Shown piece by piece: positions 51,071-61,057 of a stretch of DNA of 64,000 nucleotides. A program made the position numbers and the translations under genes. Source of the DNA: Candidatus Levyibacteriota bacterium (GTDB lineage Bacteria > Patescibacteriota > Microgenomatia > Levybacterales > UBA12049); contig JAGOPV010000004.1 in assembly GCA_017991775.1 (NCBI GenBank), positions 2,847-66,846 on the forward strand, written 5' to 3'. The number at the start of each line of letters is the position of its first letter. Positions within the stretch are counted from its first letter, which is position 1. The notes under the pieces were generated by a model. That model was not told the origin of the DNA, made no database searches, and was given only the letters and a program-made list of their open reading frames with translations.

Positions 51071-51289
51071 TCACATTTTCTCCCATGGTTTTCGGTGGAA
51101 AAATACTGGCATGATGCCAACAACTCCCACCAGGGTGTACGATGCAGCGATCGCATCTCTGGTCTCAAGACCAAAAGCGCGAAAGCTTACATCTATAAGT
51201 GGCACTCCCACTATCCCCACCATGAGATAGCAGAGGAATTTTGCGAGCCAGTAGACAGCACCCTCTGCCCAAGCAAGCATTTTGTGCAT
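51071..51289 (-). CDS. Small membrane protein (2 TM), last gene of the defence operon
   Basis: 72 aa, start overlaps stop of upstream ORF (ATGA-type coupling); GC-rich. Confidence 0.35.
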   Translation of the reverse strand: MHKMLAWAEGAVYWLAKFLCYLMVGIVGVPLIDVSFRAFGLETRDAIAASYTLVGVVGIMPVFFHRKPWEKM

Positions 51290-51290
51290 A

Positions 51291-51644
51291 CTACTCTCCG
51301 TTCGTTAATCGCGGACTTGCCAGGAAGCAAGTTGCGATGAACTCGTGAGTGACCTCGCACTCATCGCCATTGATGATCATGTATCCGCCACTCGCAAGTC
51401 TTTCGGCGAATGTGAATTCCTTCTCGAGCTTGTTCTTGCGAACTCGTGACTCATCATAGAACTTCTTGAAGTCAGCTTTGGTAAAAGGCGCAAGCCCTTC
51501 ATCGCGATGCTGCAAGAATTCTACAACCTTGCGAGCTGCCTCCTCAATACTATTATCGAAACCACCGAATGCTCCCGCGAATCCCCGCTTCTTATTAATG
51601 TGGTGAAGGCCGAGTGGGTAATTTTCACCGATTGGTGTGTTCAT
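51291..51644 (-). CDS. Hypothetical protein (defence-operon member)
   Basis: 117 aa, GC-rich, no recognised motif. Confidence 0.45.
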   Translation of the reverse strand: MNTPIGENYPLGLHHINKKRGFAGAFGGFDNSIEEAARKVVEFLQHRDEGLAPFTKADFKKFYDESRVRKNKLEKEFTFAERLASGGYMIINGDECEVTHEFIATCFLASPRLTNGE

Positions 51645-51721
51645 TTTGTCCTCCTGGACGAAAAAGTGCTATCCCTTGATAGTATCAACGTATTATAGGA
51701 CAAACCGAGGGAAATTGAAAG

Positions 51722-52066
51722 TTAAATTTTACGTATGAGGACGGTCCGAGGCTTTGCTCCTTCTGCAGCACTAATAACTCCGTTATCATAAAGCATTTGT
51801 ATAAGTTTAGCTGCCTTCTCATAGCCAATGAGAAGTTTCCGTTGCAACAACGCAGGACTTGCAGTACCAATTTCCATTACATACTCCAGTGCTGACTCAT
51901 AATATTCATCATCAATATCTTCTTTAGAAATATACTCCTTTGGATCTGGAAAAAAGCTCAGAAACTCTTCAACTCTTTTAAGGCGGATTTTGAGGTTCGT
52001 TACATCGTATCGCAACTGTATTAGCTCTTTCTTTTCTTCGTCATTCATTGGCTTAATATACACCAT
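51722..52066 (-). CDS. Stand-alone FtsK-gamma winged-helix DNA-binding domain protein
   Basis: C-terminal ASPALLQRKLLIGYEKAAKLIQMLYDNGVIS...GAKPRTVL closely matches the FtsK gamma (KOPS-binding) domain consensus. Confidence 0.7.
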   Translation of the reverse strand: MVYIKPMNDEEKKELIQLRYDVTNLKIRLKRVEEFLSFFPDPKEYISKEDIDDEYYESALEYVMEIGTASPALLQRKLLIGYEKAAKLIQMLYDNGVISAAEGAKPRTVLIRKI

Positions 52067-52083
52067 CTAAAATGATTTTTACA

Positions 52084-52833
52084 CTATGAAACCTTTTCAA
52101 CTGCCTCTCTATAATTGCAGAAGTCACACTCAGGAGAAGCTGGAGGGATTTGATCTCCCTTGAGGCAATCGACAGCATCGCGGACTGTCTGCTCGACCCA
52201 ACTATCATCACCCTCATAGCCAAGAAGTCTCACTTTGAACTCTAACTTTCCATCAAAGGCTTCTTTATCACTATCTCCATTGCAGTATACAAAGTATCCA
52301 GTTCTTGATACCTTAAATCCATTCTGCCTGAAAAGCCACTGATAAGTCTCCATCTGTCTTTTATATCCATCCTGCCAGTCAGCATCAAGATTCACTTCCC
52401 CAGTCTTTGAAGTTGCCTTATAGTCAACGATGATCAGCTCACCATCTGGTCTGACCCAGACATCATCAACTCCCCCAGTCACTAAGATATTCGTACCAGC
52501 AACTTGTGCTGTGATCCCGCGGCGCAGCGAATCTCGCCATTCATCCATACGCTCGTCCTGAAATGGCACAGCATCTACTCCATATTCTTTCATTAATGGA
52601 TGACTACTACCATTGGCTCGATGCACATCGAATTCTTTTTTAAGTAGTGCATCAACTGCGCTATTAAGGGAGAACGGAAATCCAGGAGGTCGACCCACGC
52701 CCAACTTGCGATCAAGATAGAAGCACTGCTGACAACTCAAAAAGAGATCTATCTTCCCCCGACTGAGCCTGAACGACTCCAATGAGGCATCATACATATT
52801 TCTAGAACGTTGTGAGTTGTAGTAATGAGACAT
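52084..52833 (-). CDS. Cas4/RecB-like PD-(D/E)XK nuclease with putative Fe-S cysteines
   Basis: GGVDDVW...DGELIIVDYKAT (D...(D/E)xK), N-terminal CQQC and C-terminal C-x12-C-x2-C cysteines. Confidence 0.6.
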   Translation of the reverse strand: MSHYYNSQRSRNMYDASLESFRLSRGKIDLFLSCQQCFYLDRKLGVGRPPGFPFSLNSAVDALLKKEFDVHRANGSSHPLMKEYGVDAVPFQDERMDEWRDSLRRGITAQVAGTNILVTGGVDDVWVRPDGELIIVDYKATSKTGEVNLDADWQDGYKRQMETYQWLFRQNGFKVSRTGYFVYCNGDSDKEAFDGKLEFKVRLLGYEGDDSWVEQTVRDAVDCLKGDQIPPASPECDFCNYREAVEKVS

Positions 52834-52877
52834 ATAATTGAATTATATCTTATTATTTTAACTTCTAAAGAACTATT

Positions 52878-53570
52878 CTAAATTTTGCCATTAAGTCTGT
52901 CATCTAATTTAGAGAGTTTTCCTTGCTGCATATCTGCTGGACATAGATACTCTTCGGAGAGATGTTGAGAAATATAATATTCGCCGTCTTCTTCCATCCC
53001 CATCTCTTCAAGCCATCTCTCTGCAACTGAATCATTTAACTTAAGCATTTTGGGCTGGATTAACCGTAAAATTGAAAAATATTGCTCAATTCTAGATTCG
53101 ATATTCTCCTCAATGTTTCCATTTGCATGAGCATATGTACTTCTAATCTTAACAAGCTCCTTTCCTTTTTCTACGACTTCACTGTCTACATTTATTATTT
53201 TCAAAAAATCGAAAAGTTTTCCCTCTGGAATATAACTTAAATTGCTCACTAAGCAATGACTCGGAATCACTCCTCCGTTATCTCTTATGGGAGGATTTTG
53301 CCTAAGCATCTCAAGATCATTGGGCTTGCGCACGGAGCAAGAGCCAAGAGTGGTTAAATAATCTTCTGCGTGAAATGCGCTGATACGAAAAACCTTATAT
53401 TGAATAGCGAACATGCATAACAGGTGGAATGGGAGAATCGCAAAAGGCTTAACAGGATGCTCTTTTTCAATAAGAGCTAGGAATGCTCCCCAAAGATGAT
53501 CAATATAAGGACCCAGTGATGCTGGTTCTAGTGGCAGAAAATCAAATATTTCATAATATCTTTCGTCCAT
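52878..53570 (-). CDS. Hypothetical protein with HEPN-like R-x4-H motif (possible Abi-type RNase)
   Basis: KIRSTYAHANG contains Rx4H; 4-nt gap to hsdMS stop; assignment speculative. Confidence 0.4.
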   Translation of the reverse strand: MDERYYEIFDFLPLEPASLGPYIDHLWGAFLALIEKEHPVKPFAILPFHLLCMFAIQYKVFRISAFHAEDYLTTLGSCSVRKPNDLEMLRQNPPIRDNGGVIPSHCLVSNLSYIPEGKLFDFLKIINVDSEVVEKGKELVKIRSTYAHANGNIEENIESRIEQYFSILRLIQPKMLKLNDSVAERWLEEMGMEEDGEYYISQHLSEEYLCPADMQQGKLSKLDDRLNGKI

Positions 53571-53573
53571 TTA

Positions 53574-56075
53574 CTAAGATTTCCAAACTTCTGCGATTTT
53601 TTCTCTAACCCTTTCCTCATAGATTTTAATTATTTTTTTTGTCGATTCAATTAATGCACGCTCAATTTCAACATTTTCCACAATTTGCTTTTGAACTTCC
53701 AGACTAGGGAGAGGGATCTCTTGATTAGTCACGAAATCTCTCGTTACCCCAGCCACGCTCATACCAACTGCATTATTTTTTATTCTCTCTGCAACAATCT
53801 CTGACACTAGCCATAGGTATTTTGCATCTAAATTAGGGTCTTTAGACACTAACGCGGTCAAGTCCTGGTTAATAGCATAATCCTGGTCTGCAATAGCAAA
53901 CTTACCAACAGACACACGCGTTATTAATATTGTTGAACCTTTTGGGGCAATTTTACTTGAGCTATTTTTCAAACCTTCTTCTGTAATCATTTCTGAACCC
54001 TTGATCTTGTGCTCATCAGTAAAATACCTGGCCGAAAGCCATGGAATATTGCCGCCCCAATAATTCTCCATCTCTCTTGAAGGAGTTCCGCCTCCAAAAA
54101 TGTCACATAACTGTCCTAGCTTCGCCATACTCCACTCAGGATCGATATCAAACTTTGGCTTCCAATTTTTAACAATTTGTTCTGCTCCTGAAATAATTTT
54201 TTGGTATCCCTCAATCTCCCCAGAAATTTTCTTCTGAATTTCAAGTGGAGGGAGTGGAATTTCTAGATTATATGCATCATTTCTATTAAGACCAGGAATA
54301 CCAGCTCCCGCTCTTAATAATTTCAAGTTTAGCGAAGCAAGTATAAAGTAAAGATACTTTAAATAAACCTTCTTCTCGTCTAGTAATTTTACGTAGTAAG
54401 TAGTGTCGATCGGAAAACAGCTCTCATCCTCCCAAACTACTTCACCAGCCGATCCTTTCCTTCCGATAATTATTACCGGGCCTTTAACTAAGAAACTTAT
54501 ATGAAATCCACTTCTACCATTTGATCCCATAACTGGATAAGGTCCTTCTACTCGGTCCCTCTCGGGTAAACTTTTCCCGTACTCGAACGTACATACATCT
54601 CGAAGTTTTACCATTGAACTCTTGACATCTTTCTCTGCGCCTCCAAAAGTGTATCTTTCCCAGGACAAATTATGACTCTCACTCTCTAAAATTTCTTTCC
54701 TTGATACAAAATTTATATTTGGATGTCCGTCAATTGCATGCTCTCCTTCAGGCCAACCATTAGCTGAAAATGAATTTCCAGAGATTATATGCTTTTTGTA
54801 CCTTTCAATTGCATCCAAAGCGAGTGGAATATCATTGAATTGAGATGGTGACCTTTGTGCGCTCAGATTAAATCCATCAGAAGTTAACTTAACAAATAAA
54901 ATGTGATTTACTTTTTTTACAGCTTCTTTATCTATAAATAAAATACTTGTCTTAACACCAGCGTATGGATTAAAGACTCCTGAAGGCAGGGATACTACGC
55001 ACCATAATCCTTTTTCAATTAACATTTCTCTTATCTTTCTGTATGCAAATGAATTGTTAAAAATAACTCCTTCTGGAACAATGACTCCAAGCCTTCCATT
55101 GTCCGTAAGATGATCAAGCATATATCTTAGGAACAGCACTTCTGTAGCGCCAGTATTCATCTGCAATTCTTGAGCCACACTATCTCTATCTATCGTTCCA
55201 CTAAATGGTGGGTTGGCAAGAATCACGTCATATTTATCACGATTACCTGCTGTATCTGTCAGTGTGTTTTGTCTTACTAAGCGAGCATTTTGAAGCCCGT
55301 GGAGATAGAGATTCATCATCCCAAACTTGATCATATCCTCATCACTGTCAAACCCACTGAAAGTGTGTTCATATAAAAATGTATGCTCTTTAGAATTTAA
55401 TTGATCAAAAGAGCCGCCTGTCTCTAGCACTACCTCGCTCGTATTATTCTTTCGCAAATATTCAAATGCTTTGACTAAAAATCCTGCAGTGCCAACTGCT
55501 GGATCTAATATTGTCTCCCCTTTCTGAGGAGCAATGACATTCACCATAAAATCAATAATATGACGCGGAGTTCTGAATTGTCCCGAAGTACCTGCCTGAG
55601 ATAACTTACTCAAAAGGTACTCATAAGCATCTCCGAATATATCTCTATGATTTGTCTTGCCTGCCTTTTCTGCTAATTTGGCAAACTCATCAATCTCATG
55701 AACAACAACCCTCAAAGTTGGCTGATCATAAAGTTTGATATGTGCATTTCTGAATATCAATTTAACTGTCTTATTTGTTGTACTCTCAGGTATTTTACGG
55801 AAACATTCCTCAAGAGCTACGAATAACGCTTCTGCATTAAGACTAAGCAAATTTTCCCAACGATATTTTTCAAGATCTCCATCAAAAACAATATGATCAG
55901 CATCATTAATACCTAATTGACGATATTCATCATCCTTATATGAAAGAGCTCTCATGAAGAGGAGGTAATTGATCTGCTCAATAATTGTCGGGTGACTCGC
56001 AACACCAGCACCAAAAAAACGATCCATAAGACCGTCAATCTTTCTAAGAACCTCGCTTGTTGTAATTTCTTTCAT
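53574..56075 (-). CDS. hsdM: Type I R-M N6-adenine DNA methyltransferase fused to specificity subunit (HsdM-HsdS, two TRDs)
   Basis: HsdM_N region, motif I DPAVGTAGFL, motif IV NPPF(SG), followed by two HsdS-type target-recognition domains with central/terminal conserved helices. Confidence 0.8.
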   Translation of the reverse strand: MKEITTSEVLRKIDGLMDRFFGAGVASHPTIIEQINYLLFMRALSYKDDEYRQLGINDADHIVFDGDLEKYRWENLLSLNAEALFVALEECFRKIPESTTNKTVKLIFRNAHIKLYDQPTLRVVVHEIDEFAKLAEKAGKTNHRDIFGDAYEYLLSKLSQAGTSGQFRTPRHIIDFMVNVIAPQKGETILDPAVGTAGFLVKAFEYLRKNNTSEVVLETGGSFDQLNSKEHTFLYEHTFSGFDSDEDMIKFGMMNLYLHGLQNARLVRQNTLTDTAGNRDKYDVILANPPFSGTIDRDSVAQELQMNTGATEVLFLRYMLDHLTDNGRLGVIVPEGVIFNNSFAYRKIREMLIEKGLWCVVSLPSGVFNPYAGVKTSILFIDKEAVKKVNHILFVKLTSDGFNLSAQRSPSQFNDIPLALDAIERYKKHIISGNSFSANGWPEGEHAIDGHPNINFVSRKEILESESHNLSWERYTFGGAEKDVKSSMVKLRDVCTFEYGKSLPERDRVEGPYPVMGSNGRSGFHISFLVKGPVIIIGRKGSAGEVVWEDESCFPIDTTYYVKLLDEKKVYLKYLYFILASLNLKLLRAGAGIPGLNRNDAYNLEIPLPPLEIQKKISGEIEGYQKIISGAEQIVKNWKPKFDIDPEWSMAKLGQLCDIFGGGTPSREMENYWGGNIPWLSARYFTDEHKIKGSEMITEEGLKNSSSKIAPKGSTILITRVSVGKFAIADQDYAINQDLTALVSKDPNLDAKYLWLVSEIVAERIKNNAVGMSVAGVTRDFVTNQEIPLPSLEVQKQIVENVEIERALIESTKKIIKIYEERVREKIAEVWKS

Positions 56076-56076
56076 C

Positions 56077-58479
56077 TTATATATTGACTAAAGGACTTGC
56101 TTGGATATCGCTTACTAATTCAAGAAGTTCTTCTTTGCTGTCAAATTCTTCCAGCCACCCACTCATTAGATACGCTTGAGAAAATTCTGGTCGGGTCAAA
56201 AAAGATAAATTATTTGACAAAATAATTTCTGTGCGAAGGTTTTTATCCTCGATCAGATGACCTGCCAAGTACTTAACCATCTGAGTTCTTCGCTGAGACC
56301 CTTCTCCATCATTATTTGCGAACTTATTGACGAGGCCCTGCTTAAATTCTGCAATTTGCTCATCTCTTGTAGGAAGTTGAGACTTACCCATTGCAGCGAG
56401 AAAAAAGTCCTTTACCCCTGCAACAATTCGATGACTCTGGCGAAGGGACTCTTCGTTGAAATAATATTTTGGCTTATCTAACAACTCACTACCTACCTCA
56501 GACATCAGCTCCTCAATTGCTTCTGAGTCATCGATCAAACGCTCAATCTTATCCTTATTTTTCTCTACATAACTTCTGACACTCTTTGTCCATTCATCTT
56601 GGTACATATTTCGGTCAACTACATCTCCTTCATCAAGACCATATTTTATAAGATCTCTTGTGGCGACAAAATCATTCATCTGACTTATTGGAGTATGAGC
56701 ATAAACAGGAACTTCACCATCCGCACCAGTTGCTGAGCCATGGACGAATGGAAGAGGCTCACCTGAGCCCTGGACGCGGGAGAGAGAAGTTTTCTCTTTA
56801 GGAATATTTAAAGGCTCATCCCAATCATGCTTCTCGTTGAAGTAGTCAATAACTCCAGCAAAATCATGCATAACAAAACGCTCTTTTTTAATTTCTGGAC
56901 AAAGCCTTGTACCACGACCTTTTATTTGCTGATACGTAGTTGGATCAAAAATAGCACGAGCTAATACAATATTTTGAATTTCTGGAGCATTAAATCCTGT
57001 TGATAGCATGTCAACTGTGACAGCAACTCTTGGAAGCTTATTCTCTGGGTTGGCAAAATCTTTTGCAATATCATGAGCTCCTCTAACATTTGATGTCACA
57101 ACTTCCGCGAATCGTCCATTATATTCAGGCATCAAATCATTCAGTATCTTACTCAGCGCAACAGCATGGCTTTGAGATACCGCGAAAACTAGAGACTTTC
57201 CAATTTCACCATTTGGTGAACGGTCTGCGTAATCTAGAAATTCTTGCATCATTGCCATATTGCGCTTAGGAAAAAATACTTTTTGCTCTAGGTCGCGAAT
57301 TTTAAGACTTGTTCCCTCCTCCAGCTCAATGTCGTCAAGTTTTGTAATACCTTCTTCACTCAGAGCTTGGTATGTCAAAGACGTCTTAGCTTTTCTGTAC
57401 ACTGGTGAAATCAAGTAGCCAGCTTTTGATCCATCTTGGATCGTATAGCGGAATGTTGGCTGACCATCATCACATTCAAAATATCGATAGGTATCGCGCT
57501 GGATGCGGGCTTCTAGCTTGCGCGGGTCCTCAGACGAAAGCTTCTCAATATCGATATTTTTAAGAAAGTCTTTGGGAGTAGCGGTAAGTCCGACCTTTAT
57601 TGCGCCTACGAAATGATCTACTGCAGAGCGGGCCTCAGGGGTATAAATACTTCTGTGAGCCTCATCATGAATAATCAAATCAAAAGCACCAGGAGTAAAA
57701 TCTTTTTTTCCATGTAGTCCAAGAGATTGAATCGTTGCTATCACTACATTGCTTCCGGTCAGATTCTGACGCTTACCACCCCAATATATTCCAACCATCG
57801 ATATATGTCGCAAGATTCGCTCAAATTCTTGCTTGGTCTGAATTGCAAGTGACTGACGATCGACTATAAAAAGAACTCGACTAGCATTGTTGGTGCGTAA
57901 AAATTTACTGATAATGAGTCCAGCCAGCACTGTCTTCCCAGTACCTGTAGCCATCTCTAAAAGAAAGGCCCGCTTCTTCTTTTCATCGTACCCTTTAGCA
58001 ATCGCATCCCACGCATTGATTTGAAAATCCCGAAGCCTTATTTGATCAATAACGTCAATAAAATAATCCTCATTTACACTTTTCTGCATCAAGGGCTCAA
58101 CATTGCTCACGCGTCCAGCTGCCCTTCTTCGCTCTAAGTCACTCTGCGAAAAGAAACCACTATCGGATGGAATAGCATCGCCATGCCCAAGATCCCAAAA
58201 ATAAATCTTCTCGTCATTTGCGAGATAAATAAAATCAACTTGAGGATACTGAAGTTCTACATATGATCTAGCTTGATTTTTTGCAGTATATGGATCGATA
58301 TCATGCGATTTAGCCTCAATGATTGCGATAGGCATTCCCTTAGAGTCCTTAAGGACATAGTCTGAACGGCCCGCTGCTCCATGATCCTCAAAGATAACCT
58401 GAGAGCTATCCTCGATATCCCACCCAGCTTCGCGTAACTTACGATCAATTACTACCCTCGAAAATGATTCATTTACCAT
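56077..58479 (-). CDS. hsdR: Type I restriction enzyme R subunit (HsdR-like): N-terminal PD-(D/E)XK nuclease + SF2 DEAH helicase
   Basis: N-terminal DYVLKD...IIEAK nuclease motif, Walker A MATGTGKT, DEAH (HDEAHRS), motif VI QIKGRGTR; 800 aa, shorter than typical HsdR. Confidence 0.8.
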   Translation of the reverse strand: MVNESFSRVVIDRKLREAGWDIEDSSQVIFEDHGAAGRSDYVLKDSKGMPIAIIEAKSHDIDPYTAKNQARSYVELQYPQVDFIYLANDEKIYFWDLGHGDAIPSDSGFFSQSDLERRRAAGRVSNVEPLMQKSVNEDYFIDVIDQIRLRDFQINAWDAIAKGYDEKKKRAFLLEMATGTGKTVLAGLIISKFLRTNNASRVLFIVDRQSLAIQTKQEFERILRHISMVGIYWGGKRQNLTGSNVVIATIQSLGLHGKKDFTPGAFDLIIHDEAHRSIYTPEARSAVDHFVGAIKVGLTATPKDFLKNIDIEKLSSEDPRKLEARIQRDTYRYFECDDGQPTFRYTIQDGSKAGYLISPVYRKAKTSLTYQALSEEGITKLDDIELEEGTSLKIRDLEQKVFFPKRNMAMMQEFLDYADRSPNGEIGKSLVFAVSQSHAVALSKILNDLMPEYNGRFAEVVTSNVRGAHDIAKDFANPENKLPRVAVTVDMLSTGFNAPEIQNIVLARAIFDPTTYQQIKGRGTRLCPEIKKERFVMHDFAGVIDYFNEKHDWDEPLNIPKEKTSLSRVQGSGEPLPFVHGSATGADGEVPVYAHTPISQMNDFVATRDLIKYGLDEGDVVDRNMYQDEWTKSVRSYVEKNKDKIERLIDDSEAIEELMSEVGSELLDKPKYYFNEESLRQSHRIVAGVKDFFLAAMGKSQLPTRDEQIAEFKQGLVNKFANNDGEGSQRRTQMVKYLAGHLIEDKNLRTEIILSNNLSFLTRPEFSQAYLMSGWLEEFDSKEELLELVSDIQASPLVNI

Positions 58480-58631
58480 ATTACTATGCTTATTATACTC
58501 CTCCTATAGGGTTTTATAAAGCTGAGGGAGATCCTAAAACAAAGTTCTCCCGGATTAATCGGTATTCAGGTTGACATCATAACTATTTACTAACTTCTAG
58601 TTACTAGCTCCTAATCTGATATACTTCACAA

Positions 58632-58704
58632 CAGTTCTTTGACATTCTGTTACGTTACTCCCCCACGACTTTGTGGAAGGAGCGAAATTCAAAAGGAGTT
58701 GGTC
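58632..58704 (+). promoter_or_regulatory. Conserved leader/promoter module, copy 1 of 2 (CAGTTCTTTGACATTCTGTTACGTTACTCCCCCACGACTTTGTGGAAGGAG)
   Basis: About 55-nt block about 90% identical to 59332-59390; -10-like element just upstream in both copies. Confidence 0.55.
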
Positions 58705-59226
58705 ATGTTCCAAACTGCAGGAGAATTAACAATCCAAGACGTGAGTGTAGCTATTTTGGCTGCAATCATAACGCTCTTCTGTGTTTGCTACTTAAGCAAG
58801 TACACTTTGTTCTTGGCGATGCTTGGCTATATTGCAATCATCTCCATGATTGCAGGTGACATCGCTGAGCAATTTAGTCAAAGCAGTCAAACAACTGCCC
58901 TCGCGATACTGATCGCGGCATTCTGCTTCGAAATTCTTTTTATTGCGACCCCCATCAGTAAAAAAAAGTACGATGAGGTTGCGAAGGAGGCGATGGAGTT
59001 CCGTGCGATCATTGCTGCTCATGAAGCACGCAGGCAGCTAGATCGCAAAGAAGCGCCTATCAAATATATTCAAGATCTCAGGGTACCACATGCACTAAAC
59101 AGTGAATTCTGGAAACTCATAGAAGAGGAGTTCCGGAATTTAAACATAAGGATCACCTCCACCTCTGTGGAGAAGCTCGGAAGAACTCTTACCTTCGCCA
59201 ATGAGGTCACACCCAAAACATCGTAA
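58705..59226 (+). CDS. Small membrane protein, pair paralog 1 (3 TM + cytoplasmic domain)
   Basis: ATG at 58705 preceded by AAAGGAG RBS; ORF track start 58639 is a TTG inside the conserved leader. Confidence 0.55.
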   Translation: MFQTAGELTIQDVSVAILAAIITLFCVCYLSKYTLFLAMLGYIAIISMIAGDIAEQFSQSSQTTALAILIAAFCFEILFIATPISKKKYDEVAKEAMEFRAIIAAHEARRQLDRKEAPIKYIQDLRVPHALNSEFWKLIEEEFRNLNIRITSTSVEKLGRTLTFANEVTPKTS

Positions 59227-59244
59227 CAGCTTAGATCATCACCT

Positions 59245-59278
59245 CCCCGTTTCGCCACTTGGCAGACGGGGATTTTTT
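59245..59278 (+). terminator. Rho-independent terminator (conserved module)
   Basis: CCCCGTTTCGCCACTTGGCAGACGGGG then TTTTTT. Confidence 0.8.
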
Positions 59279-59331
59279 ATACTCACGTCTACAGACTTGT
59301 CGCAAGATTGATGAATAGACTATAATTCCCC

Positions 59332-59406
59332 TCAGTTCTTTGACATTCTGTTACGTTGCTCCCCCACAACTTTGTGGAGGGAGAGAAAATTCGAAAGGAG
59401 TAACTC
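59332..59406 (+). promoter_or_regulatory. Conserved leader/promoter module, copy 2 (TATAAT 59321-59326 just upstream)
   Basis: CAGTTCTTTGACATTCTGTTACGTTGCTCCCCCACAACTTTGTGGAGGGAG. Confidence 0.55.
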
Positions 59407-59937
59407 ATGTGCCTTTCTCTCATTGAAATCTATCTGCTCATTGGAACAGTTGGACTGTTGAGCATTGCATTTGCAATCTGGACATTTGGCGGAAACGACA
59501 TGTCTCCGATACTACTCACTTGCATTGTAGTACTTACCTTGATGATCTTCATCAGGGGGTACCTGAACGAGCTGACTCTCGCACCAATCTTTGTGATGTC
59601 ATTGCTCATATGCATTATCACAATGATTCAGTTCCAGAAATCGTCGCCGCTCATGCCTCGAAAAGAGGTCCATGCATTCACTGTCGCTACGATCACACGT
59701 CGAGCCAAGCACACAGCAGAGCAACTGATGAGTCAAATGGATCCAGATGAAGAACACTTTGAAATCCACATAAGTACAGCTGGGGTTCCATGGAGACTCA
59801 CGGATCTATTCATCTCAGAAGTTGCAACGGAATTTTCCAAACACAGGCTATCTCTCTCATCACTTGAGAGAGCAAAAAACGGTCGTCAAGTGGTACTTGA
59901 ACGAATACCAACCAGAATGATGAGGACCAACGAGTAA
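59407..59937 (+). CDS. Small membrane protein, pair paralog 2
   Basis: 176 aa; 3 TM + cytoplasmic domain; AAAGGAG RBS. Confidence 0.55.
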   Translation: MCLSLIEIYLLIGTVGLLSIAFAIWTFGGNDMSPILLTCIVVLTLMIFIRGYLNELTLAPIFVMSLLICIITMIQFQKSSPLMPRKEVHAFTVATITRRAKHTAEQLMSQMDPDEEHFEIHISTAGVPWRLTDLFISEVATEFSKHRLSLSSLERAKNGRQVVLERIPTRMMRTNE

Positions 59938-60006
59938 GCAACGTCTACTCCTTAGGAGAACATCTGGCCCAACATCACCTTCGTAACAGAAACAGATTCC
60001 ACACCT

Positions 60007-60041
60007 CCCCGTTTCGCCATTTGGCAGACGGGGATTTTTTT
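60007..60041 (+). terminator. Rho-independent terminator (conserved module)
   Basis: CCCCGTTTCGCCATTTGGCAGACGGGG then TTTTTTT. Confidence 0.8.
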
Positions 60042-60451: not shown

Positions 60452-61057
60452 TCACGCCGACCTCAGCCTCGCTTCCATGATCTGCATCATGAAGTTTGCA
60501 AGCCGATGCCCCAATTCGTTGACGGCATTCTGCCCGACAGATTCTGTCATGCAGATATCTCGGTCCTTAAAGCCCATATCTCGAAGAGCATCTGGTGTTG
60601 GCGACAGCCACGAAATCCTGTGATAAATCCCTTGACCTGGATTCTTCATGACCGAGCACTTGAGCTTGAAATGGAAGACACCTGGGATCAGGGCTGGATG
60701 GACCGGATTGAGATCGACCACGTTCTGGACGTCTTGCGAGTCCAAAAATATGACCGAACATGCGAGCCCATCCAAATTGACACCAAGAAAGTGAGCAAGC
60801 ATATCCGAAGCGTCATCGTTCTGCAACGAGATCCTGACTTCGTCAATGGAAGTCTCACTTAGATGCATGTTGACGCGCCCTATGAGCTCTCGCTCTGCTC
60901 GAAGGAACCCTTCGATTCGGCGCACAAACGCCCGCCTGGCAAGAGCCTCGGACAGGCGAGCCAGCCTGCGTGCGATTGGATTCTGAGGCGAGGACAACCT
61001 CACCTCGGACTCGTAATTCGGAACGAGCTTCTCCTCGTGAGGATTACAGGTCAGCAT
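60452..61057 (-). CDS. Hypothetical protein on GC-rich (~50%+) island
   Basis: 201 aa ORF, composition strongly deviates from flanks. Confidence 0.45.
   Translation of the reverse strand: MLTCNPHEEKLVPNYESEVRLSSPQNPIARRLARLSEALARRAFVRRIEGFLRAERELIGRVNMHLSETSIDEVRISLQNDDASDMLAHFLGVNLDGLACSVIFLDSQDVQNVVDLNPVHPALIPGVFHFKLKCSVMKNPGQGIYHRISWLSPTPDALRDMGFKDRDICMTESVGQNAVNELGHRLANFMMQIMEARLRSA

What the first reader, a model, noticed from the sequence alone, without database searches (positions are those of the whole stretch)
51071..58479. Defence operon: HsdR + fused HsdM-HsdS followed by HEPN-like, Cas4-like Fe-S nuclease, stand-alone FtsK-gamma wH protein and two small unknowns
Seven minus-strand genes with 1-50 nt gaps or overlaps (56077/56075, 53574/53570, 51291/51289 are coupled). 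A complete type I R-M system needs only R, M and S. Here M and S are fused in one 833-aa polypeptide, R is unusually short, and four or five extra genes are co-transcribed. The 230-aa ORF has an Rx4H motif and may be an Abi-like HEPN RNase. The 249-aa ORF is a PD-(D/E)XK nuclease with Cas4-like cysteines. It is followed by a 114-aa protein made only of an FtsK gamma (KOPS-reading) winged helix. A sequence-reading wH domain next to a Cas4-like nuclease inside an R-M operon is not a described arrangement. It could be a second, sequence-directed defence or anti-MGE module, or an R-M-linked abortive-infection add-on. GC of the distal part (51.0-51.65 kb) is elevated, suggesting modular acquisition.
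Basis: partly seen in the sequence, partly recalled or inferred. Interest (0 to 1): 0.78.

Follow-up and report, generated by a model that had tools for sequence, protein, structure and literature searches.

The report
R-M cassette in a defence slot
The seven genes are not one operon: a mobile three-gene restriction system with a backup RNase-like protein sits in a swappable "defence slot" next to a very highly conserved resident nuclease of Patescibacteria (CPR) bacteria.

Summary
All seven minus-strand ORFs and the predicted domains are real. They fall into three units, not one operon.

(1) Window 52878-58479 is a self-contained type I restriction-modification (R-M) variant. It has an EcoAI/EcoEI-like HsdR, an HsdM-HsdS fusion with two target recognition domains (TRDs), and a 230-aa HEPN-fold protein with invariant Rx4H. 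This trio recurs in the order R, MS, X in all 5 gene-called contexts and all 14 sufficiently long metagenome loci. It never occurs there with the nuclease.

(2) Window 51722-52833 is a resident pair: a Cas4-fold PD-(D/E)XK nuclease and an FtsK-gamma winged-helix protein. The nuclease is 65-73% identical across more than 545 species genomes, mostly labelled Patescibacteria. Some lineages fuse the two proteins.

Sister genomes share both flanks at 91-98% nucleotide identity. Between the flanks they carry a Type ISP-like enzyme or a classical type IB system instead. Across species, restriction-type genes lie within 3 kb upstream of this nuclease in 18 of 62 loci and downstream in 0 of 62.

(3) Window 51071-51644 holds a hypervariable 117-aa gene and a 72-aa ORF of unknown function.

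The "single operon with add-on effectors" reading does not.

The parts
58492..58520 (-). Promoter-like site (TTTATA-17-TATAAT) upstream of hsdR, inside the variable cassette
   Evidence: Best-scoring minus-strand consensus match in the scan, 10 of 12 positions. This is a consensus match only, not evidence of function.
52835..58616 (.). Variable defence slot: the 5.8-kb R-M cassette that is replaced by unrelated R-M systems in sister genomes
   Evidence: L094 matches the window at 59269-58617 (98% nt) and 52834-51615 (91% nt), with no similarity in between. L096 homology starts at window 52847. GC is 0.389. There are no flanking direct or inverted repeats.
56077..58479 (-). hsdR, 800 aa: EcoAI/EcoEI-like (type IB-like) restriction and motor subunit
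   Evidence: ResIII 1.4e-34, HSDR_N, Helicase_C, EcoEI_R_C at E = 0.001. NF046051 scores 238.9 bits, below its cut-off of 550. PADLOC REase_I 2.4e-60. The IIEAK and DEAH motifs can be read in the translation.
53574..56075 (-). hsdMS, 833 aa: natural HsdM-HsdS fusion with two target recognition domains
   Evidence: N6_Mtase at residues 143-422 and Methylase_S twice, at about 487-637 and 647-816. The NPPF and DPAVGTAGF motifs are in the translation. Most of the top 150 cluster representatives are full-length fusions of about 790-870 aa.
52878..53570 (-). X, 230 aa: HEPN-fold protein of an unclassified family and obligate partner of R+MS. Predicted to be a latent RNase.
52842..52869 (-). Promoter-like site (TTTAGA-16-TATAAT) in the 44-nt gap before the nuclease gene. 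The -10 box ends about 9 nt before the ATG and there is no Shine-Dalgarno sequence.
   Evidence: TATAAT-like boxes sit at similar positions in L094 and L096. In 81 loci the region upstream of the ATG is A/T-rich and poor in G, and position -1 is T in 58 of 81. This is suggestive only.
52084..52833 (-). Resident Cas4-fold PD-(D/E)XK nuclease, 249 aa. It forms the conserved 3' border of the defence slot.
51722..52066 (-). Stand-alone FtsK-gamma winged-helix protein, 114 aa, partner of the nuclease in this lineage
   Evidence: PF09397 3.6e-21. 99% identical in L094 and 78% in L096, directly after the nuclease in both. Fused to the nuclease in P0060, P0116 and L063.
51291..51644 (-). Hypervariable 117-aa gene of unknown function
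   Evidence: The indexed search found only the protein itself. The sister genome L094 encodes a protein of the same length, ungapped and 41% identical, at the same position, while the flanking genes are 93-99% identical. GC is 0.489.
51071..51289 (-). 72-aa hydrophobic ORF. It is absent from sister genomes and may not be a real gene.
   Evidence: No family hit. No tblastn match in L094-L096. GC is 0.493.
58617..59269 (+). Conserved left flank of the slot: a 195-aa gene for a hydrophobic protein, transcribed divergently from hsdR
   Evidence: 98% nt identity to L094 1-653. The protein is 95% identical. No Pfam hit.

Best explanation
The run is a composite of three units.

(A) Window 52878-58479 is a horizontally mobile three-gene type I R-M variant. 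HsdR (EcoAI/EcoEI-like) and an HsdM-HsdS fusion form the methylating and restricting enzyme. The third gene encodes a HEPN-fold protein. I infer that it is a PrrC-style latent RNase: the R-M complex holds it inactive, and it is released when a phage disables restriction, giving a second, abortive line of defence.

(B) This cassette occupies a swappable defence slot. The fixed 3' border of the slot is a resident pair of genes: a very highly conserved Cas4/RecB-fold nuclease and an FtsK-gamma winged-helix DNA-binding protein. I infer that this pair is a housekeeping DNA-end-processing enzyme and is not part of this R-M system. Different R-M and other defence systems are exchanged upstream of it. 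The likely route is recombination anchored in the conserved flanks.

(C) Window 51071-51644 is a separate hypervariable small-gene locus.

Shown here: the domain content, the strict R-MS-X linkage, the cassette replacement between conserved flanks, and the phylum-wide upstream enrichment. Inferred: the RNase activity and its control by the R-M complex, the biochemical role of the nuclease/winged-helix pair, and the recombination route.
For: Module:
- X is directly downstream of a short HsdR and an M-S fusion in 5 independent gene-called contexts. The same holds in all 14 metagenome loci with at least 4.2 kb of upstream sequence.
- None of these contexts has the nuclease. One (L092) has an FtsK-gamma gene about 600 nt beyond X.
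- Recombinases or a primase lie nearby in L082, L085, L087 and L089.
- X is better conserved (40-54% identity) than R and MS (30-36%).

Slot:
- L094 has a 94% identical nuclease, a 99% identical FtsK-gamma protein and a 98% nt identical left flank. Between them it carries a 1027-aa N6_Mtase/Eco57I/Type_ISP_C enzyme plus two small genes.
- L096 carries hsdM, a 311-aa gene, hsdS and hsdR (with EcoEI_R_C), abutting the nuclease.
- Similarity resumes at the nuclease ATG.

Phylum-wide pattern:
- R-M, helicase or methyltransferase-like ORFs lie within 3 kb upstream in 18 of 62 species loci and downstream in 0 of 62 (p = 1.8e-6). Within 6 kb the counts are 20 of 51 and 0 of 55.
- Pfam on the -1 and -2 neighbours finds ResIII in 9, OLD/Gabija-type ATPase domains in 4-7, HsdR domains in 4, YgjP in 4 and GmrSD in 3. 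The +1 and +2 neighbours are mostly housekeeping genes.

Resident status of the nuclease:
- 65-73% identity in at least 545 species genomes.
- Only 2 divergent hits in 2.9 million viral contigs.

Literature:
- Solo-Cas4 genes are common in CPR bacteria and evolve mostly vertically (PMC5704561).
- At least 16 HEPN clades are linked to R-M systems, with PrrC as the paradigm (PMC3710099).
- An engineered EcoKI M-S fusion restricts with HsdR (PMC3510504).
Against: - No transcript data exist. All seven genes are co-oriented and closely spaced, and in L094 and L096 the nuclease starts 19 and 0 nt after the preceding cassette gene. Read-through co-transcription is therefore likely.
- X lacks the ABC ATPase domain of PrrC, so the regulatory analogy is untested.
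- The strong upstream-only bias, the fusions to FtsK-gamma, and R-M systems upstream in all five FtsK-gamma-coupled cases (window, L094, L096, L097, L063) are also what a functional partnership would produce.
- The seeds for the count were taken from upstream genes. The Pfam and PADLOC tallies are unbiased but give only aggregate counts.
- Three or four loci have RhuM/PDC-S05 genes downstream.
- Some species records carry taxon labels outside the Patescibacteria, which I did not verify.
Confidence: 0.7

Rival explanations
1. Functional coupling. The nuclease and FtsK-gamma winged-helix pair is a general downstream partner of whatever DNA-cleaving defence system is installed upstream. It would process the DNA ends made by restriction, either degrading or salvaging foreign DNA or resecting self-inflicted breaks, in a RecBCD/AddAB-like role. 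The winged helix would tether or guide it on double-stranded DNA. Co-location would then be selected for co-expression, not a by-product of recombination.
For: - The upstream neighbours are overwhelmingly restriction-type nucleases, helicases, methyltransferases and OLD/Gabija-type ATPases. They are co-oriented (67 of 75 at position -1) and often end less than 15 nt before the nuclease ATG.
- Three sister genomes all have an R-M system there.
- Nuclease::FtsK-gamma fusions exist, and they also follow R-M systems (L063, L097).
- The fold matches end-processing nucleases: Cas4, Dna2, RecE, AdnAB, MGME1.
- UvrD-Cas4-like fusions are known to be linked to type III R-M systems (PMC5704561).
Against: - About 60% of species loci show no defence gene upstream.
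- R-MS-X modules elsewhere work without the nuclease.
- The FtsK-gamma domain is within 10 kb in only 7 of 80 species loci.
- A promoter-like box directly before the ATG suggests the nuclease can be expressed on its own.
- R-M systems dominate the defence systems seen here in any case, so the DNA-cleaving bias does not discriminate between the readings.
Confidence: 0.3
2. All seven genes form one defence operon, in which the Cas4-like nuclease, the FtsK-gamma protein and the small ORFs are accessory effectors of this particular R-M system.
For: Co-orientation and short gaps. There is no strong terminator between the genes.
Against: - The nuclease and FtsK-gamma genes are absent from all other R-MS-X loci, apart from an FtsK-gamma gene near L092.
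- Sister genomes keep the nuclease and FtsK-gamma genes but swap the cassette.
- The nuclease is present without any R-M system in most species loci.
- GC content differs between the units.
Confidence: 0.08
3. X is not an RNase effector. It is a structural or regulatory subunit of the fused-MS enzyme. For example, it could compensate for the unusual stoichiometry of an M-S fusion with two TRDs, or control assembly or restriction alleviation.
For: - X is strictly and immediately coupled to MS and is better conserved than R or MS.
- Many invariant residues lie outside Rx4H: PFHLL, R62, E116, Y164, D213.
- The engineered EcoKI M-S fusion needed extra M subunit in vitro (PMC3510504), so natural fusions may need a helper.
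- The fold match to HEPN is only moderate.
Against: - The Rx4H dyad is invariant in all 49 sequences.
- HEPN-RM linkage is a recurrent theme interpreted as a second-line RNase (PMC3710099).
- Some modules insert a further Abi_alpha gene between MS and X, which looks like an abortive-infection context.
Confidence: 0.2
4. The adjacency is coincidental. In small, gene-dense genomes with long co-directional gene runs, an R-M system simply happens to lie beside a housekeeping nuclease.
For: The loci examined are densely packed and neighbours are variable. CPR bacteria are reported to have a high density of defence systems (PMC12259885).
Against: - Upstream against downstream: 18 of 62 against 0 of 62, p = 1.8e-6.
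- Three of three sister genomes have different R-M systems at exactly this junction.
- PADLOC families matched at E of 1e-10 or better: 331 upstream, 71 downstream.
Confidence: 0.07

Closest known systems
EcoprrI-PrrC (a type IC R-M locus with an embedded HEPN anticodon nuclease) and the 16 or more HEPN clades linked to R-M systems (Anantharaman et al. 2013, PMC3710099)
   Same: A HEPN-fold protein with the Rx4-6H dyad is encoded inside a type I R-M gene cluster and is strictly co-inherited with it. The proposed logic is that restriction is the first line of defence and a latent RNase the second.
   Different: X is a small (217-305 aa) stand-alone protein without the ABC ATPase domain of PrrC. 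It matches no curated HEPN family. It follows a fused M-S gene in the order R, MS, X. Neither activity nor regulation has been tested.
Engineered 'Type IMS' EcoKI HsdM-HsdS fusion (Roberts et al. 2012, PMC3510504)
   Same: One polypeptide carries the methyltransferase and both TRDs and works with a separate HsdR.
   Different: The fusion here is natural and widespread: most of the top 150 cluster representatives at 50% identity are full length. It is paired with an EcoAI/EcoEI-like R and always with a HEPN partner. How the usual M2S1 stoichiometry is met is unknown.
Type IB R-M systems (EcoAI/EcoEI family)
   Same: HsdR of about 800 aa with an N-terminal nuclease, an SF2 motor and a weak EcoEI_R_C tail. 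Gamma-class N6-adenine methyltransferase with NPPF. Two TRDs.
   Different: M and S are fused. HsdR scores 238.9 bits against a cut-off of 550 for NF046051, so it is a distant relative and not an equivalog.
Solo-Cas4 / pfam12705 Cas4-like nucleases of CPR bacteria (Hudaiberdiev et al. 2017, PMC5704561)
   Same: A stand-alone Cas4-fold nuclease outside any CRISPR locus. Such genes are common in small-genome CPR bacteria and evolve like ordinary vertically inherited genes. Their function is unknown, and repair or defence roles have been suggested.
   Different: That paper placed solo-Cas4 genes outside functionally characterised genomic contexts. Here the gene marks the 3' edge of variable defence cassettes in about 30-40% of species, and it is paired with or fused to an FtsK-gamma domain in some lineages. 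The cysteines follow a CxxC...CxxC pattern.
Cassette-like variation of restriction loci and defence-island hotspots between conserved core genes (for example the E. coli hsd-mrr 'immigration control region'). Cited from memory.
   Same: Unrelated restriction systems occupy the same chromosomal position between conserved flanks in close relatives. There is no integrase or att repeat at the junctions.
   Different: Only one flank, the nuclease gene, is conserved across the phylum. The bias is strictly to its 5' side and is co-oriented with it.

Membership tests
Type I R-M system (EcoAI/EcoEI, type IB-like) | HsdR with an N-terminal PD-(D/E)xK nuclease and an SF2 DEAD/DEAH motor | tested here: met
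   HSDR_N at residues 26-97, ResIII at 147-303, Helicase_C at 426-525. The IIEAK and DEAH motifs are in the translation.
Type I R-M system (EcoAI/EcoEI, type IB-like) | Curated equivalog score for EcoAI-family HsdR, and the EcoEI_R_C tail | tested here: not met
   NF046051 scores 238.9 bits against a cut-off of 550. PF08463 scores 19.6 bits against a cut-off of 24. It is a distant relative only.
Type I R-M system (EcoAI/EcoEI, type IB-like) | N6-adenine methyltransferase with SAM-binding and NPPF motifs, and an S subunit with two TRDs | tested here: met
   N6_Mtase 6.6e-52. Methylase_S in two stretches. NPPF and DPAVGTAGF can be read.
Type I R-M system (EcoAI/EcoEI, type IB-like) | Separate HsdM and HsdS polypeptides assembling as M2S1 | tested here: not met
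   There is a single 833-aa ORF. No convincing internal ribosome-binding site precedes the first Met of the S part.
Type I R-M system (EcoAI/EcoEI, type IB-like) | Bipartite methylated target and ATP-dependent cleavage at a distance | not testable with these tools
   This needs methylome data or biochemistry.
HEPN superfamily | Conserved Rx4-6H dyad | tested here: met
   R143 and H148 are invariant in 49 sequences.
HEPN superfamily | All-alpha HEPN fold | tested here: met
HEPN superfamily | Significant match to a curated HEPN family model | tested here: not met
   Only sub-threshold hits: HEPN_Swt1 in 4 of 49 members (best E = 0.015), HEPN_Apea in 2, RiboL-PSP in 1. PADLOC PDC-S56 at 0.0086.
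HEPN superfamily | Metal-independent endoRNase activity | not testable with these tools
   This needs biochemistry.
PrrC-type anticodon nuclease | N-terminal ABC/Rad50-like NTPase fused to the HEPN domain | tested here: not met
   X is 230 aa and entirely helical, with no ATPase match.
PrrC-type anticodon nuclease | Gene embedded in and co-inherited with a type I R-M cluster | tested here: met
   5 of 5 gene-called contexts and 14 of 14 long metagenome loci.
Cas4 family | RecB-type PD-(D/E)XK motifs and Cas4-like fold | tested here: met
Cas4 family | Curated Cas4 model cut-offs (TIGR00372, PF01930) | tested here: not met
   TIGR00372 scores 33.5 bits against a cut-off of 65. PF01930 scores 14 bits against 22.7. 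The best family is PF12705.
Cas4 family | One N-terminal and three C-terminal cysteines binding an Fe-S cluster (pattern stated from memory) | tested here: not met
   The invariant cysteines are C34-x2-C37 and C236-x2-C239, plus C184 and C223. The bound metal or cluster cannot be determined here.
Cas4 family | Association with cas1, cas2 or a CRISPR array | tested here: not met
   No cas-type neighbour in the window flanks or among the tallied neighbours in 80 loci.
FtsK gamma domain | PF09397 winged helix above the gathering score | tested here: met
   75.1 bits against a cut-off of 30.6, residues 52-111.
FtsK gamma domain | C-terminal domain of an FtsK/SpoIIIE translocase that reads KOPS sites | tested here: not met
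   It is a stand-alone 114-aa protein with a helical N-terminal extension. Conserved homologues of 108-124 aa exist. DNA specificity cannot be tested here.
Defence-island or restriction-cassette hotspot | Different defence cargo between the same conserved flanks in related genomes | tested here: met
   Window, L094 and L096.
Defence-island or restriction-cassette hotspot | Enrichment of defence genes at the site across many genomes | tested here: met
   18 of 62 upstream against 0 of 62 downstream. Pfam and PADLOC tallies agree. No control with random core genes was run.
Defence-island or restriction-cassette hotspot | Integrase or att repeats marking site-specific insertion | tested here: not met
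   There is no recombinase in the window flanks and no flanking repeats. Recombinases lie near the nuclease in 8 of 80 other loci, mostly downstream.

The most novel reading that the evidence does not exclude
The very highly conserved Cas4-fold nuclease, with its FtsK-gamma winged helix (separate or fused), is a phylum-wide DNA-end processor guided by a DNA-binding domain. It would be the functional counterpart of RecBCD/AddAB, with a KOPS-like recognition module in place of Chi recognition. Patescibacteria would deliberately co-express it with whichever DNA-cleaving defence system occupies the slot upstream. This would couple restriction to the destruction or salvage of foreign DNA and to the repair of self-inflicted breaks.
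Probability: 0.15. Interest if true: 0.85.

Novelty: new variant of a known kind. Interest (0 to 1): 0.55.

Why it matters
Three points would matter if they hold.

1. It defines a natural and widespread R + fused-MS + HEPN triad. Until now the "Type IMS" architecture was described only as an engineered enzyme. The triad offers a compact system for testing how a small HEPN protein is wired to a restriction complex. It also raises the question of how a fused M-S with two TRDs meets the usual M2S1 stoichiometry.

2. It gives the enigmatic solo Cas4-like nuclease of CPR bacteria a reproducible genomic context. The gene marks the 3' edge of a variable defence slot in roughly a third of species. That makes the gene a practical anchor for mining new defence systems in organisms that cannot be cultured.

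3. It raises a testable idea: restriction and DNA-end processing may be coupled in these minimal genomes.

Tried and rejected
- The afdb50 fold library was unavailable.
- A sequence search of the PDB with the nuclease found nothing at E of 1 or better.
- Rfam gave no hit in window 47-61 kb.
- No direct or inverted repeats flank the cassette, so I dropped transposition or site-specific insertion as the explanation for this window.
- X has no relative in IMG/VR or PLSDB plasmids.
- The nuclease has only 2 divergent IMG/VR hits and one plasmid hit, at 44.5% identity in Flagellatimonas. The plasmid context was uninformative. I therefore rejected the idea that it is mainly a phage or mobile-element gene.
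- I looked for an internal start for a free S subunit. The nearest GGAGG lies 27 nt before the Met that opens the S part, which is too far to argue for one.
- Pfam gave nothing for the small genes of the sister cassettes (L094 63 aa and 192 aa, L096 311 aa, L085 120 aa, L082 320 aa).
- The indexed search returned only the 117-aa ORF itself. That was misleading, because tblastn in the sister locus found a 41% identical allele.
- I considered that the 114-aa ORF is a remnant of ftsK. I rejected this because full-length 108-124 aa homologues are conserved, and true ftsK genes next to the nuclease are rare.
- I looked for a single conserved neighbour of the nuclease across species and found none.

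Full report
**Observation.** The seven minus-strand ORFs are at the stated coordinates.

- The 800-aa protein is an HsdR: ResIII 1.4e-34, HSDR_N, Helicase_C, a weak EcoEI_R_C match, PADLOC REase_I 2.4e-60, and NF046051 EcoAI-family 1.2e-70, which is below its cut-off.
- The 833-aa protein is a genuine HsdM-HsdS fusion, with N6_Mtase and two Methylase_S stretches.
- The 249-aa protein matches PDDEXK_1 at 1.7e-12. Its Cas4 model matches are sub-threshold.
- The 114-aa protein matches FtsK_gamma at 3.6e-21.
- The 230-, 117- and 72-aa ORFs match nothing.

Three details need correcting. One gap is 77 nt. At 800 aa, HsdR is ordinary for the EcoAI/EcoEI family (model length 768; related HsdRs here are 763-866 aa). 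The nuclease's invariant cysteines are arranged CxxC...CxxC. The window comes from a Candidatus Levybacteria MAG, according to the names attached to identical proteins.

**The R-MS-X module.**

- The 230-aa protein (X) belongs to a small family of 54 clusters with no Pfam domain.
- In five independent gene-called contexts it lies directly after a short HsdR (787-866 aa) and an M-S fusion (797-867 aa). In some contexts one extra gene sits between MS and X: a 120-aa ORF or an Abi_alpha protein.
- A metagenome scan gave 27 more loci. All 14 with at least 4.2 kb of upstream sequence show R, M, S, X on one strand, and 25 of 27 show at least the S part. The other two have less than 350 nt upstream. 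None contains the nuclease or an FtsK-gamma gene.
- Serine recombinases, an integrase, or a primase lie nearby in several contexts.
- The window's R and MS are 30-36% identical to those in the other modules. X is 40-54% identical. The trio is therefore an old, co-inherited and mobile unit.
- The M-S fusion is common. The top 150 representatives at 50% clustering are mostly full-length proteins of 790-870 aa.
- An engineered EcoKI M-S fusion ("Type IMS") restricts phage with HsdR in vivo, but needed extra M subunit in vitro (PMC3510504). How natural fusions with two TRDs meet the usual stoichiometry is open. I found no convincing internal start.

**What X is.**

- R143 and H148 (Rx4H) are invariant in 49 sequences. 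So are a PFHLL motif, R62, E116, Y164 and D213.
- The AlphaFold2 model is confident (pLDDT 93) and entirely helical.
- Sub-threshold Pfam hits among family members go to HEPN_Swt1, HEPN_Apea and RiboL-PSP.
- I conclude that X belongs to an unclassified HEPN family.
- HEPN genes embedded in R-M clusters are a known theme, with at least 16 clades. They are interpreted by analogy with PrrC, which is kept latent by EcoprrI and released when phage inhibit restriction (PMC3710099).
- X lacks PrrC's ATPase domain, so the mechanism is inferred and not shown. A structural role in the fused-MS enzyme remains a rival explanation.

**The nuclease and FtsK-gamma pair are resident genes.**

- The nuclease has more than 8000 homologues. 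The best 120 are 69-100% identical.
- A species-level genome scan found at least 545 relatives. The best 80 are 65-73% identical and come from records named Levyi-, Morani-, Peri-, Peregrini-, Gracili-, Sacchari-, Roizman-, Doudna-, Nealson- and Staskawicz-bacteria, among others. Some TPA records carry other taxon labels, which I did not verify.
- More than 100 of its 249 positions are invariant in the 38-sequence alignment. These include D124, D137-x-K139 and Q160xxxY164.
- The model (pLDDT 84) is closest to Cas4, Dna2, MGME1, RecE, AdnAB and lambda exonuclease.
- It is almost absent from viral contigs and plasmids.
- This fits the published picture of solo-Cas4 genes: common in CPR bacteria, mostly vertically inherited, function unknown (PMC5704561).
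- An FtsK-gamma domain lies within 10 kb in only 7 of 80 species loci. However, it is fused to the nuclease in P0060, P0116 and L063, and it directly follows the nuclease in the window's close relatives. A functional link between the two proteins is therefore likely in these lineages.

**The defence slot.** Two sister genomes settle the operon question.

- L094 has a 94% identical nuclease, a 99% identical FtsK-gamma protein, a 98% identical MgtC and a 95% identical left-flank protein. It matches the window at 59269-58617 (98% nt), at 52834-51615 (91% nt), and at 50974-48615 (94.5% nt).
- Between the flanks, L094 carries a 1027-aa N6_Mtase/Eco57I/Type_ISP_C enzyme and two small genes, in place of hsdR, hsdMS and X.
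- L096 (nuclease 82% identical) has hsdM, a 311-aa gene, hsdS and an hsdR with EcoEI_R_C, abutting the nuclease. An FtsK-gamma gene and a NUDIX gene follow.
- Similarity resumes essentially at the nuclease ATG. On the other side it stops just before the divergently transcribed 195-aa gene.
- No repeats flank the cassette. The window flanks are not defence genes.

**The pattern across species.**

- The -1 and -2 neighbours of the nuclease are rich in ResIII (9), OLD/Gabija-type ATPase and TOPRIM domains (4-7), HsdR-specific domains (4), YgjP (4), GmrSD (3), Eco57I, N6_N4 methyltransferase and UvrD.
- The +1 and +2 neighbours are mostly housekeeping genes, apart from 3-4 RhuM/PDC-S05 genes.
- PADLOC families matched at E of 1e-10 or better number 331 upstream and 71 downstream.
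- With a seed panel, R-M, helicase or methyltransferase-like ORFs lie within 3 kb upstream in 18 of 62 loci and downstream in 0 of 62 (p = 1.8e-6). Within 6 kb the counts are 20 of 51 and 0 of 55. Nearly all are co-oriented with the nuclease. The seeds came from upstream genes, so this count is less independent than the Pfam and PADLOC tallies.
- The fused nuclease::FtsK-gamma genes also follow R-M systems (L063, L097).

**Interpretation.**

- The data show a variable defence slot whose conserved 3' border is the nuclease gene.
- Whether this reflects recombination anchored in a very highly conserved gene, or selection for co-expression of an end-processing nuclease with DNA-cleaving defences, cannot be decided here.
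- TATAAT-like boxes about 7-12 nt before the ATG, no Shine-Dalgarno sequence, and a T at position -1 in 58 of 81 loci hint at an autonomous, possibly leaderless, start.
- Gaps of 0-19 nt in the sister genomes also allow read-through from the cassette.
- I rate the composite-plus-slot explanation at 0.7. I rate functional coupling, which is compatible with it, at 0.3.

**The distal ORFs.**

- The indexed search found only the 117-aa ORF itself. The sister genome L094 nevertheless encodes a protein of the same length, ungapped and 41% identical, at the same position, between genes that are 98-99% identical.
- It is therefore a real, hypervariable gene. The raised GC there marks allelic replacement, not simple insertion.
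- The 72-aa ORF has no counterpart and may not be a real gene.

**Verdict.** The single-operon reading is not.

- The R + fused-MS + HEPN triad is a new variant of a known kind: an R-M system with a linked HEPN protein.
- I found no description of the nuclease-anchored defence slot in the papers I searched.

Noticed in passing
window 58620-60040: There are two tandem paralogous units. Each has a 68-nt leader (58620-58687 and 59321-59388, 88% identical), a hydrophobic ORF with no Pfam hit (195 aa and 176 aa), and a 39-nt terminator-like hairpin followed by a T-run (59240-59278 and 60002-60040, 97% identical). The left edge of the variable cassette (58617) coincides with the start of the first leader.
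   Followed up: partly
window 51291-51644; L094 5769-6119: The 117-aa gene is 41% identical, ungapped and of the same length as its counterpart in a sister genome whose neighbouring genes are 93-99% identical. It is a hypervariable small protein of unknown function just downstream of the nuclease and FtsK-gamma pair.
   Followed up: partly
window 60452-61057: A 201-aa minus-strand ORF lies in a GC-rich patch (about 0.53, against 0.42 for the window) and has no Pfam hit. It may be another acquired segment.
   Followed up: no
L096 1634-2569: A 311-aa gene is inserted between hsdM and hsdS of the classical type IB system in a sister genome. It contains IRNETVGH, which fits Rx5H, so it may be another HEPN-like protein embedded in an R-M cluster. 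Pfam found nothing significant.
   Followed up: partly
L092 8062-8403: A 113-aa stand-alone FtsK-gamma protein, 31% identical to the window's over its full length, lies about 600 nt downstream of X in a divergent R-MS-Abi_alpha-X module that has no nuclease. Small FtsK-gamma proteins may have their own link to these cassettes or to the elements that carry them.
   Followed up: partly
45 nt upstream of the nuclease ATG in 81 loci (window 52834-52878): The region before the nuclease start is A/T-rich and poor in G, with no Shine-Dalgarno sequence. Position -1 is T in 58 of 81 loci. TAnAAT boxes cluster at about -14 to -6. This suggests a leaderless or Shine-Dalgarno-independent transcript.
   Followed up: partly
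L007 and L049 (same contig, CAYYLC010000003.1): Two copies of the nuclease gene lie about 115 kb apart on one contig. They are 71% and 68% identical to the query. One has a serine recombinase 6.9 kb upstream. The gene is therefore not always single-copy.
   Followed up: no
L009, L023, L025, L033, L034, L038: Tyrosine or large serine recombinase genes lie 1-5 kb downstream of the nuclease. Five of these six loci also have defence genes upstream. In some genomes the nuclease may sit inside an integrative island.
   Followed up: partly
L097 7487-7990: A RusA Holliday-junction resolvase gene lies immediately upstream of a nuclease::FtsK-gamma fusion, after a type IB R-M cluster that also contains a NYN-domain gene.
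   Followed up: no
L085-L088, upstream of hsdR: In some R-MS-X modules, a DUF4268 or DUF5655 gene directly precedes hsdR on the same strand. It could be a further component of the module. No such gene is present in the window.
   Followed up: no
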